From a virus (lineage: Duplodnaviria > Caudoviricetes): 64,000 nucleotides of DNA. This document shows, one piece after another, positions 1,565 to 64,000 of the stretch. How positions within the stretch are numbered: the first letter of the stretch is position 1; the number at the start of each line of letters is the position of its first letter. The position numbers and the translations under genes were made by a program. The DNA lies in IMG/VR virus record IMGVR_UViG_3300028591_000010, positions 1 to 64,000 of that record; one strand, 5' to 3'. The notes beneath the pieces were generated by a model. It searched no databases, was not told the DNA's origin, and saw only the letters and a list, made by a program, of their open reading frames with translations.

Positions 1565-1601
1565 ACGATCTCTTGGGGGCTTCGGCCCCCATACAGGTCG
1601 T
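1565..1601 (+). promoter_or_regulatory. Stable UUCG-tetraloop hairpin after the MCP gene (mRNA stabiliser or attenuator)
   Basis: GGGGGC-TTCG-GCCCCC (1575-1590), extendable by ACGATC/GGTCGT. No U-tract follows. Confidence 0.6.
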
Positions 1602-49327: not shown

Positions 49328-50251
49328 TTAGCTTTCAATCAGATTATTAAACATAAGGTCATTCTCGAATTCAAGTATACAAGGTTTACCTGCATCTCTG
49401 TTTTTCAACATATGCATGTAGACTTTGTTTTGTGTAGGTAGATGATTCGGACCATATTCTTGTATGTTCAAAATCTCTGGTCTATGCATTACGAGCACAT
49501 AATCACTCGCTTGAAACATTGCATCGGATGACGATAAATCGCTGCGCATTGGGTAATGACTCAGCGGATTGTTTATCCTTTCTGAAGATTCAATGTTTCT
49601 ATTCATCTGTGCTATTTGCACTACTGACGTTAACGGGAACTTTTTAGCTTGTATGAAAACACGCTCAAGTTCTGCTGTTGTCTCTATTACAGAACCAACT
49701 TGTTTCGTCAGCAGAGTATGGTCATACACTATTAAGAAGTGCTTGCCCGTATCTTTCACATAGGTGAAATAGAATTCATTTATAATACGTCTTACATCTT
49801 CAGGAGTACCTGGATTATCTACAAAATAGATAGGATATTCCTTTAGCTGATTAGATACTCTAATGACTTCCTTAAAGGTATTGTCATCGAGGTCCGTCTC
49901 CGAACTATACAAGGTAGAAGTCGTTTTACGAAGTTTATTCGAAAGCGTTCTTCCAACTTGCCTAAATCCAACCATCTCTAATGAGAATGATAAGATGATT
50001 ATATCTTCATTAGGATTCAAATCAATCACATCAGTAGTTAGCTCATTAACAAACGAGCTCTTACCGGAACCAGAGATACCAGCTATGGTATAAACGGTAT
50101 TTGGTTCAATACCTCCCATACACTGCTTATTAAACTTAGACCACCTAGTTTTCAATGAAACAATATTATGTTCCCTTCTACCTCTGATATAGTTGATAGC
50201 TTCTTGAGCTACAACACTCATTGGACGTACTTTAGATGATATCTGTTCCAT
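49328..50251 (-). CDS. dnaB: DnaB-like replicative helicase
   Basis: AGISGSGKS, FSLEM, VYDH, AQMNR, QASD and LKNR SF4 helicase motifs. Confidence 0.9.
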   Translation of the reverse strand: MEQISSKVRPMSVVAQEAINYIRGRREHNIVSLKTRWSKFNKQCMGGIEPNTVYTIAGISGSGKSSFVNELTTDVIDLNPNEDIIILSFSLEMVGFRQVGRTLSNKLRKTTSTLYSSETDLDDNTFKEVIRVSNQLKEYPIYFVDNPGTPEDVRRIINEFYFTYVKDTGKHFLIVYDHTLLTKQVGSVIETTAELERVFIQAKKFPLTSVVQIAQMNRNIESSERINNPLSHYPMRSDLSSSDAMFQASDYVLVMHRPEILNIQEYGPNHLPTQNKVYMHMLKNRDAGKPCILEFENDLMFNNLIES

Positions 50252-54684: not shown

Positions 54685-54855
54685 TTAAAATAATTTGTTA
54701 ATTGTACGCGCAAACCAATTCATGCGCTTGAGCATATAGACTATATTATTGTGGTCATTATAGACACCAATAACTTTGTAGTCTTTTGACAGCTCTTCGA
54801 GACGAGTATTACTGATAATACCGTCACTGGTTATTTGGATATATTTTTGTTTCAT
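54685..54855 (-). CDS. Small hypothetical protein (56 aa)
   Basis: MKQKYIQITSDG...WFARTINKLF, below the ORF-track cutoff. Fills the gap and has an AT-rich leader like its neighbours. Confidence 0.55.
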   Translation of the reverse strand: MKQKYIQITSDGIISNTRLEELSKDYKVIGVYNDHNNIVYMLKRMNWFARTINKLF

Positions 54856-54892
54856 ATTGATTACGATTTAAAAGTTTTGGGAAATATTTTTG

Positions 54893-54952
54893 TGATCGGT
54901 TACGGGAACGATCCGCTCATACATAGAAATGTATGCACCAACATTCCGATCG
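54893..54952 (-). ncRNA. Degenerate tRNA-like element
   Basis: GATCGG/CCGATC outer stem, TGTTGG D-loop-like segment, CATACA/TGTATG hairpin, GCGG-ATCGTTC-CCGT T-arm-like hairpin. Confidence 0.4.
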
Positions 54953-54960
54953 GTTTTCGC

Positions 54961-55515
54961 TTATATAGCGAAATCCTGCTCAAACATAGTAGCAGTCTTA
55001 TCGTCAAGAGTAATCTCAGTATTGTTATTGAAATTCTCCATATTAGTGTCAAACTTATTAGCCTTCAACTGCAAATCCTTAATCAGAGCTGCAATCTTAG
55101 CACTTGTGAAAATCTCCTCCTTACCAATATTCTTAAGACCCTTCTGAGCCTTAGTCTTCTGGTCAAGCGTAGGAATCATCTTAAGCTGTGCAATAGCCTC
55201 CTTCATCTCACAAGCCATGAAGATGCTATAATTGTTGGTCTTCTTGAAATCCTCAGCATTGAACGTATCAATACCCATATTTAAATAAAACAACATACCT
55301 TTAATATACACCAGCTTCTCTGCCATCTGAGTAATCTCGTTATAGAGAGCCTTCAGATCGTGTGTACGGAAGCCATTCTTAATCTCTTTCTTAGAGAGCA
55401 GATTCTCTGCCTTAATATAGCTCCAATACTTCTTCTTCTTACTATTAATATCATCACGCATATTAATAATCTTACCTGAGTTCAACTTAATTGATTTCGT
55501 CATATATATAAACAT
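54961..55515 (-). CDS. Hypothetical protein
   Basis: 184 aa ORF. The true start may be the ATG four codons in (MTKSIK). Confidence 0.7.
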   Translation of the reverse strand: MFIYMTKSIKLNSGKIINMRDDINSKKKKYWSYIKAENLLSKKEIKNGFRTHDLKALYNEITQMAEKLVYIKGMLFYLNMGIDTFNAEDFKKTNNYSIFMACEMKEAIAQLKMIPTLDQKTKAQKGLKNIGKEEIFTSAKIAALIKDLQLKANKFDTNMENFNNNTEITLDDKTATMFEQDFAI

Positions 55516-55621
55516 TTGATTTAGTTAGACTTCGTGTTAATTAAATTGAATTCGAGTATCATCTACCTGTGACTTATAGCAAATCGCTTCACTATAAATC
55601 TAAACAAATCTCTGTGAGGGC

Positions 55622-55979
55622 AGAATCCCGCAAGATTCTACCCTCAAACTCCCGCAAGAGTTATAGACGAGATAAGTTTTATGAAAATAGCATTATCGAC
55701 AATGACCTAGATATATTCATTGCTCAGTTCATCAAGATGTTATTATACTACCGCAATAATATAACAACTAAATCCCGCAAGATTTATTAGTCTCGACTAA
55801 TATGAGCTCCGACTACACCCATTTCAAGGTCAATAAATGCTCTACCAGTTGCGTCTGGAAAACGATACGTATGAGTACGTGTACGAGTATTAACGTTAAC
55901 GACAATGTTTGTGTCATTGGCAGGTGTCTCAGTGACTACAACCCTTGAGCCCGACTTCCTCTGGTCTCCCGCAAGAGAC
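55622..55979. repeat. Five hairpins with invariant CCGCAA loop
   Basis: Stems AGAATC/GATTCT, AACTC/GAGTT, TTATACTA/TAATATAA, TAAATC/GATTTA and GTCTC/GAGAC each enclose CCGCAA. Confidence 0.75.
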
Positions 55980-56377
55980 GATTGTCCGTCACCATTACAC
56001 ACATGTCTATAACAATCCATCAGACGATTAACTACATCGTTATACTTTTCCGCACGTTGTGCTTCCTTAGCTATTTCAACACTCAAACCTTCTTCCAATG
56101 CTTTCGCATTTAATCCTGAAGAAAGGTCAACCAGGGCATCCCATACAGCGAGAGCCCAACTTTCAAATGTAAGTTCGCGCTTACATCCGATCAGCTGATT
56201 CCAGAACCAATGAGTTGTTTCACCAAGAATCACGGTTCCTTCTACATCGTCAATACGATACGTCTTGTATGATCTACCCTCTTTGCCAGCAGCTTTTACC
56301 TTATTGGCAATAGTTTCATTGTTCATCAGAATCTCCATATATTTTACGGAGTCTGGAACGAGGGCTGTTTTCGGCAT
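55787..56377 (-). CDS. Hypothetical protein
   Basis: 196 aa ORF, tightly packed with the upstream gene. Confidence 0.7.
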   Translation of the reverse strand: MPKTALVPDSVKYMEILMNNETIANKVKAAGKEGRSYKTYRIDDVEGTVILGETTHWFWNQLIGCKRELTFESWALAVWDALVDLSSGLNAKALEEGLSVEIAKEAQRAEKYNDVVNRLMDCYRHVCNGDGQSSLAGDQRKSGSRVVVTETPANDTNIVVNVNTRTRTHTYRFPDATGRAFIDLEMGVVGAHISRD

Positions 56378-56379
56378 AA

Positions 56380-57033
56380 CTATTCAGTTACGTGAACATT
56401 TACAATTGCATCTGCGTTTACGTCAGACTTAATATCGAGATTATCGATCTTAGACTCTGACCACTGACGCTTGTACTCAGCAGCCTTACGGAGATTTTCC
56501 GTAATAGCAGTCTCTACAGACTGACGCTGACTCTGAAGAGTCTTAATCAGCGCATCGATCTCTGCCAGAGTACCCTTATTGGCCTCATTCAGGACAGATA
56601 CAGTTTCGTCAACTGCGACAAAGAAGTTCTTACCTGTGCCACGCAGAGCATCATTGATAGCATCGCGCATAGACTTCTCTACAACCAGAGGGTTAGTGCC
56701 ATTCAAGGGGCACTTGAAGTCACTTTCGCCATTATCCTTCAAGTTAACAGCAATACATACACGCTGGGAGTCGCCAAGACCTTCCGTCACATAGTTGACA
56801 CCTTTGATGTCAATCAGACGAATGGTGTAACGCTTTGGCGACTGGTTCACCATCAAAGTATTACTTGCAGTAGCAAGATTCTTAGCCTCTTCAAACTTGT
56901 CCTTACCACCAGGCCATGTGGGCTGACATTCTACTTTACCAAAAGTCTTACCGAGAAGACCACCGATGAAACTCGCCGACTGACGAGTGCTTGCAATCAC
57001 CTCATTGAGGTTAATTTCTACGTTTTTATCCAT
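56380..57033 (-). CDS. Hypothetical protein (coiled-coil C-terminus)
   Basis: 217 aa ORF with high-expression-type codon usage. Confidence 0.7.
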   Translation of the reverse strand: MDKNVEINLNEVIASTRQSASFIGGLLGKTFGKVECQPTWPGGKDKFEEAKNLATASNTLMVNQSPKRYTIRLIDIKGVNYVTEGLGDSQRVCIAVNLKDNGESDFKCPLNGTNPLVVEKSMRDAINDALRGTGKNFFVAVDETVSVLNEANKGTLAEIDALIKTLQSQRQSVETAITENLRKAAEYKRQWSESKIDNLDIKSDVNADAIVNVHVTE

Positions 57034-61596: not shown

Positions 61597-62154
61597 TTAA
61601 ACGTTAATTTTGGTTTTTAATTTGCGTCTAGTTCTCGACAACGTTGACTTTATAGTTCCTGTTGGGATTTTTAACGCTTTACTAATCTTTTTAACTGGTA
61701 AATTATCGACATAAAACAACTCAAAGATCTTACGAGTGACCTCTGGTAGTTTTTCGAATTCAGCGACAACTTGTTTATACGTCAAATGATTGACTAGATC
61801 ATCCTCCGCTGATACTTGAACATTTTTAAGTGACAGTCTATCACCTTCATCTTCAAGTACAAGTCGCTTATTACGCGTCTCACGTAAATAATCTACAGCT
61901 GTATGATTAGCTATAATTCTCAGCCAACCTCCAAAGGAGTTGTAAGCTGTGAATGTCGAGAGTTTATCATACACTTTAAGAAATACAATATTAGCGATAT
62001 CTTTCGCTTCATCCATATCTCTAAGATATTGGAATAACACACTTTCAACAAACGGTTTGTATCTTCTATAGAGTGTATTAAAAGCAAGCTCATCGCCTGC
62101 TTGCGCCTTTTTGATTAGACCAATTTCAACATCGGTGATTCTAGGATTCTTCAT
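61597..62154 (-). CDS. ECF-type sigma-70 factor
   Basis: AQAGDELAFNTLY, DIANIVFLKVY, FGGWLRIIANHTAVDYLR (region 2) and ISKALKIPTGTIKSTLSRTR (region 4). ATG at 62154 preferred over TTG at 62166. Confidence 0.9.
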   Translation of the reverse strand: MKNPRITDVEIGLIKKAQAGDELAFNTLYRRYKPFVESVLFQYLRDMDEAKDIANIVFLKVYDKLSTFTAYNSFGGWLRIIANHTAVDYLRETRNKRLVLEDEGDRLSLKNVQVSAEDDLVNHLTYKQVVAEFEKLPEVTRKIFELFYVDNLPVKKISKALKIPTGTIKSTLSRTRRKLKTKINV

Positions 62155-62377
62155 AATCAAAAACAATTAGCCGGTTATTAAGGTGTCACTCCTGTAACAG
62201 ACGGTGCTGCATATAGTGTAAGAAGTATGAGCAGGGTTCAATTGGACTTATCTTTAGGATTAGAGTACCTTCACTAGTTGCCAACCATCGCTCTGTACTC
62301 CCAGATCGACTGCTACGAATCTTTCATACTTCTTAATTGTGGGCAGTTGCTATCAAAAGCTACCTCAAGGGACTGCC

Positions 62378-62806: not shown

Positions 62807-63304
62807 TTAATACTTACCTTCTATACAACATATCAAGAATTCTGCTAAGTTATCAACATACTGATACTTTGCTTCTTTCTCCTCCTGCGTACAATTGGGA
62901 GAAGGTAATAGCCAAGAAAGATAATCTCGAATGATTTCAATCTGTATATCAAAATCATCTTTACCTTTCTGTTTAGAGATACTGTATGCATGTTCAATGC
63001 ACTGAAATTCTTTCATGAACCATTTAACCCATTTAGAGATACGTTCCCAATATTCTTTTTCTTCATTGGTTAAATCGTCCCAATTAATAGTTTTATCAAA
63101 CTCAAATTGATATTTACCATGTTCAGCAATGCCCAATGCTATACGAGTAGCATTATTACGCTGATCTTTATCACGATATATACCAATAAAATTTGAATAA
63201 ACATGATCTATCCACTTTTCTTTAGCTTTACGCCATTTAAGTGCATAGTTTACCATCTTGGGACAACGGTCCCGTAACATTTCTTTGTATCCTAATTTCT
63301 TCAT
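62807..63304 (-). CDS. Hypothetical protein
   Basis: 165 aa ORF starting just after the tRNA-Arg 3' end. Confidence 0.7.
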   Translation of the reverse strand: MKKLGYKEMLRDRCPKMVNYALKWRKAKEKWIDHVYSNFIGIYRDKDQRNNATRIALGIAEHGKYQFEFDKTINWDDLTNEEKEYWERISKWVKWFMKEFQCIEHAYSISKQKGKDDFDIQIEIIRDYLSWLLPSPNCTQEEKEAKYQYVDNLAEFLICCIEGKY

Positions 63305-63308
63305 ATTG

Positions 63309-63382
63309 TGATTCCTAATGGATTCGAACCATTGACCGACAGATTAGAAATCTGTTGCTCTATCCAGCTGAGCTAAGGAACC
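63309..63382 (-). tRNA. tRNA-Arg(TCT)
   Basis: Full cloverleaf GGTTCCT...AGCTCAGCTGGATAGAGC, ACAGA-TT(TCT)AA-TCTGT, AATGG-TTCGAAT-CCATT, AGGAATC-A. CCA not encoded. Confidence 0.9.
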
Positions 63383-63454
63383 GTTACGTCAGCGGCTACT
63401 ATTATTCACCGCTGACTACTATTACAAATCGTTCATTAGACATTGCCTCACGGC

Positions 63455-63503
63455 AGGAGTGAGGTAGGGATTCGAACCCCATACTCCAACATAGTCCTCA
63501 CTC
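63455..63503 (-). ncRNA. Mini tRNA-like element (acceptor stem + T-arm, no anticodon arm)
   Basis: GAGTGAGG/CCTCACTC stem, 14-nt linker containing TGTTGG, TGGGG-TTCGAAT-CCCTA. Confidence 0.6.
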
Positions 63504-63509
63504 TGTCTG

Positions 63510-63722
63510 GGCACTTAGGTAGCCCGTAACACCGACTTTACGCTGCCTCCTTGAGGCCCGTATAGTCTGCAATGTTAATATTGCCAGTTAATTTTATATC
63601 AGAGCGCTTCACGACTTACCGTCTACCGCTGTCAAATCCAAATAGGCCCAGATACTCATGTTAGACTGGTGGACCTAGAGGGATTCGAACCCTCGTCCAA
63701 ACGGCTTATTCTCAGTCACGCT
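63510..63722 (-). ncRNA. ssrA: Circularly permuted (two-piece) tmRNA
   Basis: 3' acceptor piece (GGACGAGGGTTCGAATCCCTCTAGGTCCACCA, ends 63667) precedes the 5' piece (GGGCCTATTTGGATTTGACAGCGG, starts 63649). 7-bp stem with G3.U70. TAACT then tag frame 63585-63538, GNINIADYTGLKEAA*. Outer ends approximate. Confidence 0.85.
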
Positions 63723-64000
63723 AAGATTCTTTTGATGTGATGTTGTCAAATCATGCTACATCTCTTGTGAACTCTATGATGATCAGTCACAGAATTCGAT
63801 TTAAGGCCATTTTCAGCCGTTCTAAGGCGTTTTCTAACCTCTAATGGGTAGCTAATCCATAAGCGGTTATTAAACGCTTCAAAACGGCTTTTTGGGACCC
63901 CATAAAAAGCACATTGCCCTACTACTGACTCTAAGGTTCTGAATAGAATATGCTTGCATTCTTGATATACAATGCAGTGTCAATATGTTGATACAATCTC

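What the first reader, a model, noticed from the sequence alone, without database searches (positions are those of the whole stretch)
55622..55979. Cluster of five hairpins with variable stems and invariant CCGCAA loop
Seen: hairpins at 55622-55639, 55647-55662, 55743-55764, 55769-55786 and 55964-55979 (the last inside a CDS). Stems differ in sequence but keep pairing, and the loop is constant (UUGCGG in mRNA sense). Inference: multivalent binding sites for one protein. Options are a CsrB-like RNA sponge, an autoregulatory leader of the gene at 55515, or template-strand ssDNA hairpins as in N4 virion-RNAP promoters or a priming origin.
Basis: partly seen in the sequence, partly recalled or inferred. 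Interest (0 to 1): 0.7.

Follow-up and report, generated by a model that had tools for sequence, protein, structure and literature searches.

The report
Tetraloop-capped RNA hairpin cluster, crAss-like phage
A crAss-like gut phage and its relatives keep, at one spot between their early genes and their DNA-replication genes, a folded stretch of messenger RNA. Its five to six small hairpins all end in the same four-base cap (U/C-G-A/C-G), which points to an unknown factor that reads the cap, though nothing has been tested at the bench.

Summary
All five reported hairpins exist. The 10-mer TCTTGCGGGA (gene sense) occurs four times in the 106-kb genome, all within 350 bases.

They fold on the gene-sense (window minus) strand. 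Each is a stem of 6 or more pairs, closed by Y-G pairs, with a tetraloop YGMG (UGCG, CGAG or UGAG), a member of the YNMG/UNCG class.

Non-Watson-Crick stem positions are 39 G·U against 2 A·C, so the selected structure is the sense strand, most simply RNA.

The layout recurs in 16 related loci (Suoliviridae: the window's clade plus Oafivirinae), with many compensatory changes:
- hairpin A inside the 196-aa gene;
- B and C just after its stop codon;
- D and E inside a three-way junction followed by a U-rich tract.

It is absent from four other Suoliviridae subfamilies and matches no Rfam family.

Loop position 2 is G in 43 of 45 YNMG loops. Equally stable loops never appear, so stability alone does not explain the cap.

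Best reading (about 0.45): several docking sites for one cap-reading factor that controls the transcript at the boundary between early and replication genes. N4-type single-stranded-DNA promoters and a CsrB-like sponge are not supported.

The scan had noted this stretch in overlapping windows, and UGCG-capped hairpin sets in other phages.

The parts
55964..55979 (-). Hairpin A: GUCUCU[UGCG]GGAGAC, inside the 196-aa gene, where it codes S-L-A-G-D in a linker predicted to be disordered.
   Evidence: In 16 loci it is 100% paired, with changes on both sides in 4 of 6 pairs. In 120 protein clusters the matching tripeptide is always [L/S/P]-[A/E]-G.
55785..55802 (-). Hairpin B0 (doubtful): UAUUAGU[CGAG]ACUAAUA, spanning the TAA stop codon at 55787-55789.
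   Evidence: The closing pair is broken in the closest relative L001, so it is not counted as a conserved member.
55769..55786 (-). Hairpin B: UAAAUCU[UGCG]GGAUUUA, starting just after the stop codon. It is the short member of the first short-plus-long pair.
   Evidence: A hairpin lies 0-30 nt after the stop codon in nearly all 17 loci.
55739..55768 (-). Hairpin C: 13 pairs, A/U-rich, 3 G·U pairs, UGCG loop. It is the long member of the first pair.
   Evidence: The loop is CGAG in L001. Equivalent long hairpins occur in L005 and L008.
55669..55673 (-). Helix P, 5' strand (AUCUC). It closes the three-way junction around D and E.
   Evidence: It covaries: AUCCC/GGGAU in L019. In cr7_1 I read CAUCC/GGGUG by eye from the sequence.
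55647..55662 (-). Hairpin D: AACUCU[UGCG]GGAGUU. It is the short member of the second pair.
   Evidence: helix 2: 97.6% paired, 4 of 6 pairs changed on both sides.
55615..55646 (-). Hairpin E: 14 pairs including 2 G·U, UGCG loop. It is the long member of the second pair.
   Evidence: compensatory changes against L001; helices 3 and 4.
55608..55612 (-). Helix P, 3' strand (GAGAU).
55601..55607 (-). U-rich tract (UUUGUUU) directly after helix P.
   Evidence: Seen in the sequence of the close relatives and of cr7_1. It does not meet the terminator scan's rule.
55571..55600 (-). Hairpin F: 13 pairs with a GCGA (GNRA-type) loop. It covaries, but its loop is not YGMG.
55516..55567 (-). Leader blocks conserved across the family (GGUAGAUGAU-CUCGAAUUCAA and GAAGUCUAACUAAAUCAA) in front of the next start codon.
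   Evidence: They are single-copy in the genome. Their role is unknown.
55787..56377 (-). Gene for a 196-aa protein of unknown function. It carries hairpin A and co-occurs with the hairpin cluster.
   Evidence: No Pfam, PHROG or PDB match.
54961..55515 (-). Gene for a highly conserved 184-aa helical protein, the first gene after the cluster and upstream of the DNA polymerase gene.
   Evidence: The AlphaFold model has pLDDT 94, with no informative fold match.

Best explanation
This is a conserved, cis-acting folded region of the phage's own polycistronic mRNA. It runs from the last third of the 196-aa gene to the leader of the next gene.

**Shown**
- The gene-sense strand carries one hairpin in the reading frame (A).
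- It also carries two adjacent short-plus-long hairpin pairs (B-C and D-E).
- The second pair sits in a three-way junction closed by helix P, followed by a U-rich tract.
- Every one of these helices is capped by a YGMG tetraloop on Y-G closing pairs.

**Inferred**
- The caps adopt the UNCG/YNMG fold, in which loop base 2 points outward. That base is held at G, so one trans-acting factor, most likely a phage or host protein, reads the cap and binds at several sites.
- Binding would decide the fate of the transcript at the boundary between the early unit and the replication genes. It could set read-through against termination at the P/U-tract element, or it could direct cleavage and end-protection.
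- The logic resembles lambda nutR/boxB before tR1, or the five iron-responsive elements in the transferrin-receptor 3' UTR. No membership of either family is claimed.
For: - **Unique cluster.** The motif occurs only here in this genome. Apart from two strays, 6-pair YGMG hairpins also occur only at this locus in the first 100 kb of cr7_1.
- **Strand.** Under a strand-neutral selection, the non-Watson-Crick stem positions are 39 G·U against 2 A·C. The sense strand folds at -82.3 kcal/mol (z = -4.5); the antisense strand folds at -56.4 (z = -2.3).
- **Covariation.**
  - Hairpin A is 100% paired, beaten by 0 of 500 shuffles.
  - The intergenic consensus fold has compensatory changes in 31 of 49 pairs.
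  - The P/D/E junction is 92.7% paired, with 17 of 21 pairs changed on both sides, against 58% or less when the partners are slid.
- **Constraint on the protein.** The tripeptide coded by hairpin A is [L59/S58/P3]-[E63/A57]-G120 in 120 protein clusters, within an otherwise variable, disordered linker.
- **Cap held beyond folding needs.**
  - 43 of 45 YNMG loops have G at position 2.
  - The equally stable loops CUCG, UCCG and UACG appear in none of the counts listed for that census.
  - UGAG, which is used, ranks 229th of 256.
  - GC-rich capped hairpins elsewhere in the genome use UUCG and UACG.
- **Fixed spacing.** The distance from B to D is 120-128 nt and from D to E 23-26 nt across genera.
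- **Position.** The cluster lies between the sigma-factor and giant-RNA unit and the replication genes. Several other subfamilies carry a tRNA gene in the same gap, which fits a role as a processing or boundary site.
Against: - No binding protein was identified. Neither flanking protein gave an RNA-binding signature; the 184-aa model is confident, but the 196-aa model is too poor (pLDDT 61) to judge.
- No transcript ends or expression data exist for any Suoliviridae phage.
- UGCG on a C-G pair is among the most stable loops (rank 4 of 256), so part of the loop conservation could be thermodynamic.
- The hairpins could share descent by duplication.
- The terminator scan does not call any of the hairpins.
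- The alignment used for one search was fitted to the model, which favours the structure.
Confidence: 0.45

Rival explanations
1. These are passive structural hairpins. They would be a set of very stable capped hairpins serving only as terminators or 3'-end protectors of processed mRNAs, like the intercistronic C(UUCG)G hairpins of T4, and no specific reader of the loop would exist.
For: - UGCG on a C-G pair ranks 4th of 256 loops for stability.
- Helix P is followed by a U-rich tract.
- The genome uses UNCG-capped hairpins after genes elsewhere.
- The cluster lies at an operon boundary where relatives carry a tRNA gene.
- The UUCG hairpin is described as autonomous and bound by no protein (PMC4371310).
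Against: - Loop base 2 is G in 43 of 45 YNMG loops, although the fold allows any base there (PMC5633025).
- Equally or more stable loops are never used, while the weak UGAG is.
- About half of the closing pairs are U·G, not the stabilising C-G.
- One hairpin is kept inside a reading frame, where it constrains the protein.
- No hairpin passes the terminator rule.
Confidence: 0.25
2. This is a self-contained folded RNA that needs no dedicated protein. In this reading the two hairpin pairs act directly on the transcribing polymerase, as the HK022 put RNAs do, or the caps dock into receptors within a larger fold, as in a riboswitch-like element.
For: - There are two adjacent short-plus-long hairpin pairs per genome.
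- The three-way junction has long-range helices that covary.
- Spacing is fixed across genera.
- YNMG loops are reported to take part in tertiary contacts (Proctor et al. 2002, as cited in PMC5633025).
Against: - No receptor motif or ligand pocket was found.
- No Rfam family matches.
- Hairpin A lies about 190 nt away, inside a translated region that ribosomes would unfold.
- The A/C variation at loop base 3 within single genomes rules out plain base-pairing of the loops to one constant partner.
Confidence: 0.15
3. The hairpins form in single-stranded DNA of the gene-sense strand. They would serve as a priming or origin signal next to the replication genes, like the complementary-strand origin of phage G4 or the single-strand initiation signals of plasmids.
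For: - The locus is unique and lies directly upstream of the replication module.
- G·T pairs are tolerated in DNA hairpins (my own knowledge).
- The virion polymerase of a crAss-like phage prefers single-stranded templates in vitro (bioRxiv 10.1101/2020.03.07.982082).
Against: - The special stability of the YNMG/UNCG fold depends on ribose 2'-OH contacts (PMC4371310).
- Long-range helices and a junction are typical of RNA.
- The cumulative GC skew turns at 42-44 kb, with no inflection at 55-56 kb.
- The element is missing from four sister subfamilies that share the same replication genes.
Confidence: 0.07
4. The hairpins act as a decoy that soaks up a host RNA-binding protein, in the manner of CsrB or RsmZ, while embedded in a phage mRNA.
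For: - Five or six sites with the same cap lie within 370 nt.
- Earlier notes of this scan report hairpin arrays with a fixed CCGUAA loop in Bacteroidota. The reverse complement of that loop, U[UACG]G, would belong to the same loop class. These notes are unchecked leads.
Against: - No separate promoter or terminator was found.
- One site lies in a reading frame.
- The loops carry no GGA.
- My attempt to recover the CCGUAA arrays returned only unrelated repeats, so the link is untested.
- The genome holds no clear CCGUAA-capped hairpin; one 4-pair CCGTAA candidate at 68175-68188 was the only hit.
Confidence: 0.05
5. The hairpins are N4-type promoters: extruded from the template strand and recognised by the phage's virion RNA polymerase.
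For: - crAss-like phages inject a virion RNA polymerase that transcribes single-stranded DNA, and its early promoters are unknown (bioRxiv 10.1101/2020.03.07.982082).
- The hairpins lie upstream of a gene.
Against: - Selection acts on the non-template strand.
- On the template strand several relatives would have A·C mismatches next to the loop.
- The loop has 4 bases, not the 3 of N4 promoters (N4 features from my own knowledge).
- One hairpin is inside a gene.
- The site is in mid-genome, far from the terminal repeats.
- The element is absent from sister subfamilies.
Confidence: 0.03

Closest known systems
YNMG/UNCG tetraloop hairpins, in particular the stem-loop d tetraloop of the enterovirus oriL cloverleaf, bound by protein 3C (PMC5633025; PMC2346598).
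   Same: The loop consensus is the same: Y at position 1, A/C at 3, G at 4. UGCG itself is used by enteroviruses. A viral protein recognises the fold rather than a fixed sequence.
   Different: In enteroviruses position 2 varies freely and there is one site per genome, on an RNA genome. Here position 2 is fixed as G, there are five or six sites, and the element sits in the mRNA of a DNA phage. No binder is known.
Intercistronic C(UUCG)G hairpins of phage T4 mRNAs (Tuerk et al. 1988, as recounted in PMC4371310).
   Same: Both are small, very stable tetraloop-capped hairpins of the UNCG class in phage polycistronic mRNAs.
   Different: From my own knowledge the T4 hairpins are dispersed, and PMC4371310 describes the UUCG cap as bound by no protein. 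Here the hairpins form a single cluster per genome, never use UUCG, often have U·G closing pairs, and include one kept inside a reading frame.
Lambda nutR/boxB with N protein, and the HK022 put RNAs (processive antitermination; from my own knowledge).
   Same: Small hairpins with a tetraloop-like fold lie in the nascent early transcript just before a terminator that guards the replication genes. The put sites are two adjacent stem-loops, present twice per genome.
   Different: boxB has a GNRA-like pentaloop and one hairpin per site. No N-like protein, boxA element or Nus dependence was found here, and the polymerase that transcribes this region is unknown.
The five iron-responsive elements in the transferrin-receptor 3' UTR (from my own knowledge).
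   Same: Several hairpins with different stems and one conserved loop, placed after a reading frame, let a single protein control the fate of the mRNA.
   Different: That system is eukaryotic, with a different loop (CAGUGN) and a bulged C. It is an analogy of layout only.
CsrB/RsmZ protein-sponge small RNAs.
   Same: Both have many hairpins that present one loop motif.
   Different: Those are stand-alone small RNAs with GGA loops that bind CsrA. The element here is embedded in an mRNA and a reading frame and has no GGA loop.

Membership tests
YNMG/UNCG-class RNA tetraloop hairpin | A four-base loop with Y at position 1, any base at 2, A/C at 3 and G at 4. | tested here: met
   In an unbiased census, 45 of 90 four-base-loop hairpins at the locus are YNMG: 28 UGCG, 12 CGAG, 3 UGAG and 2 others.
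YNMG/UNCG-class RNA tetraloop hairpin | It forms in RNA, on one defined strand. | tested here: met
   39 G·U against 2 A·C at the non-Watson-Crick stem positions. Sense-strand fold z = -4.5, antisense z = -2.3. Whether the molecule is RNA or sense-strand DNA cannot be settled by computation.
YNMG/UNCG-class RNA tetraloop hairpin | The three-dimensional Z-turn fold, with a syn G at position 4 and base 2 pointing outward. | not testable with these tools
   This needs NMR or crystallography, or at least chemical probing.
Intrinsic (Rho-independent) terminator | A G+C-rich stem followed at once by a run of U. | tested here: inconclusive
   No hairpin of the cluster passes the scan. Helix P, which closes the D/E junction, is directly followed by UUUGUUU, and this is conserved in relatives.
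N4-type virion-polymerase hairpin promoter | The hairpin forms on the template strand of the genes it drives. | tested here: not met
   The selected structure is on the non-template (sense) strand.
N4-type virion-polymerase hairpin promoter | A stem of 5-7 pairs with a 3-base loop, upstream of early genes at the genome end that enters the cell first (features from my own knowledge). | tested here: not met
   The loops have 4 bases. One hairpin is inside a reading frame. The site is at 55.6 kb of a 106-kb genome with terminal repeats.
CsrB/RsmZ-type sponge small RNA | GGA motifs presented in the hairpin loops. | tested here: not met
   The loops are UGCG, CGAG or UGAG.
CsrB/RsmZ-type sponge small RNA | A stand-alone non-coding gene with its own promoter and terminator. 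| tested here: inconclusive
   The hairpins lie within and between co-directional genes. The scan finds no promoter signal above shuffled expectation and no terminator at the hairpins, but it does not cover Bacteroidota or phage promoter types.
Lambda-type nut/boxB antitermination site | A GNRA-like pentaloop hairpin with an adjacent boxA element and a cognate N protein. | tested here: not met
   The loops are YGMG tetraloops. No N-like protein was recognised among the neighbouring genes. Only the position before the replication genes is analogous.
Any Rfam family | A match to a curated covariance model. | tested here: not met
   The best hits are chance-level, with E-values of 1.9 or more and scores far below the gathering scores.

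The most novel reading that the evidence does not exclude
The cluster is the recognition platform of an undiscovered regulator that reads a UNCG-type tetraloop with an exposed G. That regulator, a protein or the polymerase itself, would switch a whole branch of crAss-like phages from early transcription into the replication genes. This would be a nut/boxB- or put-like antitermination system for phages of Bacteroidota, using several cap-reading sites, one of them written through a reading frame.
Probability: 0.2. Interest if true: 0.75.

Novelty: new variant of a known kind. Interest (0 to 1): 0.55.

Why it matters
crAss-like phages are among the most abundant viruses of mammalian guts, yet how they time their gene expression is largely unknown. 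For the one phage studied, no early-promoter motif could be found (bioRxiv 10.1101/2020.03.07.982082).

This element is a compact, strongly covarying RNA signal at the border between the early and replication genes. It therefore offers a concrete handle:
- the hairpins can serve as bait to fish for the factor;
- they can serve as a reporter for read-through;
- they can mark this phage branch.

It is also a clean natural case in which an RNA structure dictates a protein sequence: A/E and G are invariant in an otherwise free linker. And it is a case in which the 'free' base of a UNCG-type loop is not free, which suggests a mode of tetraloop recognition with few precedents.

Tried and rejected
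- **Rfam** scan of 54800-56500 at a permissive threshold: only chance-level hits.
- **Protein libraries.** Pfam and PHROGs on nine neighbouring proteins gave only the DNA polymerase and an ECF-type sigma factor.
- **ESM Atlas** on both flanking proteins: uninformative.
- **PDB sequence profiles** for both flanking proteins: nothing.
- **184-aa protein.** The AlphaFold model is good (pLDDT 94). Foldseek and VIA-align returned only generic helical bundles, Z of 8 or less.
- **196-aa protein.** The model is poor (pLDDT 61), so I made no fold search.
- **Closed or failed tools.**
  - The search for related loci with the 184-aa alignment failed for lack of a conserved block.
- **CCGUAA lead.** My single genome-contig scan for arrays of CCGTAA loops returned only unrelated tandem repeats. 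The possible link to the hairpins with a fixed CCGUAA loop noted elsewhere in this scan remains untested.
- **Dulem virus 42.** The three AGGA-loop hairpins in its homologous gene fall on conserved protein motifs and are probably driven by coding.
- **Promoter reading of the leader.** The GAAUUC and GUCUAA blocks could not be a -35/-10 pair, because their spacing varies between 11-12 and 16-17 nt (read).
- **Phyletic profiling** of neighbouring proteins by tblastn was too insensitive to single out a reader.

Full report
**1. What is there**

The window is the first 64 kb of a 106,373-bp phage genome with direct terminal repeats. Its relatives are crAss-like phages of the family Suoliviridae.

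From about 43 kb onward the genes lie on the minus strand. The reported region covers two things:
- the 3' third of a 196-aa gene (55787-56377);
- the 271-nt gap before a 184-aa gene (54961-55515).

The DNA polymerase gene and, by the annotated cr7_1 map, the rest of the replication module lie downstream. An ECF-type sigma factor gene and a 2.1-kb gene-free stretch lie upstream.

All five hairpins are real.
- The 10-mer TCTTGCGGGA (gene sense) occurs four times in the genome, all within this cluster.
- A genome-wide scan finds such hairpins essentially only here.
- The same holds for the first 100 kb of the relative cr7_1.

**2. Anatomy, read on the gene-sense strand**

Each element is a stem of at least 6 pairs. 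Its last two pairs are Y-G (C-G or U·G), and it is capped by a tetraloop, UGCG in this genome.

| Element | Window coordinates | Notes |
|---|---|---|
| A | 55964-55979 | inside the reading frame |
| B | 55769-55786 | starts just after the stop codon |
| C | 55739-55768 | 13 pairs |
| D | 55647-55662 | 6 pairs |
| E | 55615-55646 | 14 pairs |
| P | 55669-55673 with 55608-55612 | AUCUC/GAGAU; closes a three-way junction around D and E |
| U-rich tract | 55601-55607 | UUUGUUU, directly after P |
| F | 55571-55600 | covarying hairpin with a GNRA-type loop |

B-C and D-E are two adjacent short-plus-long pairs. A doubtful sixth capped hairpin spans the stop codon (55785-55802). Two sequence blocks conserved across the family lead to the next start codon.

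**3. Conservation**

I compared sixteen related loci with the window: ten from IMG/VR and six annotated Oafivirinae genomes. The flanking 196-aa protein is 33-83% identical among them. They show the same layout:
- A lies 169-190 nt before the stop codon.
- B lies 6-21 nt after it.
- D lies 120-128 nt after B.
- E lies 23-26 nt after D.

The stems differ and the loops follow the consensus YGMG. Some genomes use UGCG throughout, some use CGAG, and several mix UGCG, CGAG and UGAG.

Covariation is strong.
- Hairpin A is 100% paired, with changes on both sides in 4 of 6 pairs. None of 500 shuffles reaches this, and slid controls reach at most 74%.
- The consensus fold of the gap has compensatory changes in 31 of 49 pairs.
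- A covariance model of the P/D/E junction also finds cr124_1 (E = 7e-4), Bohxovirus (0.008) and cr7_1 (0.03), none of which was used to build it.
- The same model finds nothing elsewhere in 327 kb of held sequence.
- On the resulting alignment 92.7% of cells pair and 17 of 21 pairs change on both sides. That alignment was fitted to the model, which favours the structure.

**4. Which strand and which molecule**

I selected hairpins by a strand-neutral rule. Their non-Watson-Crick stem positions are then 39 G·U against 2 A·C.

On the opposite strand several relatives would have A·C mismatches next to the loop. The sense strand also folds much better than chance (z = -4.5 against -2.3).

The loop class (Y-N-A/C-G) is the UNCG/YNMG family, whose fold rests on ribose 2'-OH contacts (PMC4371310; PMC5633025). 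So the selected structure is on the sense strand and is most simply RNA. Sense-strand DNA cannot be excluded by computation.

**5. A footprint in the protein**

Hairpin A codes S-L-A-G-D, in a linker that AlphaFold leaves disordered (residues 129-165).

In 120 cluster representatives of the protein, the three residues coded across the loop are [L 59, S 58, P 3]-[E 63, A 57]-[G 120]. The neighbouring positions vary freely.

This fits the codon pattern N-Y-Y, G-(A/C)-G, G-G-N that the RNA motif demands. In the loci with DNA in hand, a change of loop from UGCG to CGAG comes with A to E.

**6. The cap is held more tightly than folding requires**

- Of 45 YNMG loops at the locus, 43 have G at position 2. 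The fold allows any base there, and enteroviruses use all of them (PMC5633025).
- By nearest-neighbour energies C(UGCG)G ranks 4th of 256, CGAG 39th and UGAG 229th.
- The equally stable loops CUCG, UCCG and UACG appear in none of the counts listed for that census.
- Elsewhere the genome caps GC-rich hairpins with UUCG and UACG.
- A and C both occur at loop base 3 within single genomes, which argues against the loops pairing with one constant RNA.

Together these points favour a factor that reads the fold plus the exposed G.

**7. Distribution**

- The 184-aa downstream protein is present in all Suoliviridae subfamilies sampled.
- Distant homologues of the 196-aa protein are also there.
- The capped hairpins are absent at the syntenic spot in Loutivirinae, Boorivirinae, Uncouvirinae and Bearivirinae.
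- Three of those genomes (cr4_1, cr125_1, cr115_1) carry an annotated tRNA gene in the same gap.

The element is therefore an innovation of one branch. It is not an obligatory partner of the 184-aa gene. It occupies a place that relatives use for a transcript-processing signal.

**8. Interpretation**

Best reading (about 0.45): several docking sites in the mRNA for one cap-reading factor. That factor would set termination against read-through at the P/U-tract element, or direct cleavage and end-protection, at the border between early and replication genes.

Rivals:

| Rival | Weight |
|---|---|
| Passive stable hairpins | 0.25 |
| Self-contained folded RNA acting without a dedicated protein | 0.15 |
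| Sense-strand DNA priming signal | 0.07 |
| Decoy for a host protein | 0.05 |
| N4-type promoters | 0.03 |

The crAss-like phage phi14:2 injects a polymerase that prefers single-stranded templates, and its early promoters are unknown (bioRxiv 10.1101/2020.03.07.982082). That made the promoter idea worth testing. However, the strand, the loop size, the position inside a gene and the mid-genome site all speak against it.

**9. Limits**

- No binder, no transcript data and no experiment are available.
- Neither flanking protein resembles a known fold or family.
- The attempt to test a link with the hairpins with a fixed CCGUAA loop that this scan noted in Bacteroidota failed.
- Earlier notes of this scan gave me the family name and the idea of transcript punctuation by tRNA-like elements. 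They also supplied the 'short-plus-long pairs' wording, which I checked directly.

Noticed in passing
window 55516-55567 (- strand) and the first codons of the gene ending at 55515: Blocks conserved at the nucleotide level across all Suoliviridae loci examined: GGUAGAUGAU-CUCGAAUUCAA, GAAGUYUAACUAAAUCAA, and the gene start AUGACGAAAUCAAUUAAGUUGAAYUCAGG. They are single-copy in the genome. The GAAUUC-containing word recurs about 75 nt apart in relatives. They may be an operator, a promoter or a translation signal.
   Followed up: partly
window 1574-1591 (+ strand), and genome position 91736-91755 (+ strand, outside the window): GC-rich hairpins capped by UUCG and UACG. The first lies right after the gene at 24-1547, and neither is followed by a U tract. 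They look like this phage's ordinary end-of-gene hairpins.
   Followed up: no
window 3300-43000 (+ strand): Under the standard bacterial code the + strand reading frames are short and broken, whereas the minus-strand genes are intact. This suggests a reassigned stop codon in the late genes, as known for some crAss-like phages.
   Followed up: no
window 61597-62166 (- strand): A phage-encoded sigma factor of the ECF type (Sigma70_r2 and r4 domains, E = 6e-14). cr7_1 annotates the equivalent gene as sigma-W.
   Followed up: no
window 63282-63760 and 63308-63382 (- strand): ARAGORN calls a tRNA-Arg(TCT) and an overlapping permuted-type tmRNA. cr7_1 annotates a tmRNA at the equivalent place.
   Followed up: no
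L032 2366-2440, L037 2276-2360, L039 2339-2425 (cr4_1, cr125_1, cr115_1): In other Suoliviridae subfamilies the gap that holds the hairpin cluster here holds a tRNA gene instead. Dulem virus 42 (L031, about 2360-2430) has a tRNA-like sequence there.
   Followed up: partly
L031 1816-2097 (Dulem virus 42): Three hairpins with different stems and the same AGGA loop lie inside the homologue of the 196-aa gene. They fall on conserved protein motifs, so they are probably a by-product of coding.
   Followed up: partly
window 49364-49446 (+ strand): Exact copies of two leader words, CTCGAATTCAA and GGTAGATGAT, lie 73 nt apart on the opposite strand inside the gene at 49328-50251. This is unexpected for words of this length and remains unexplained.
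   Followed up: no
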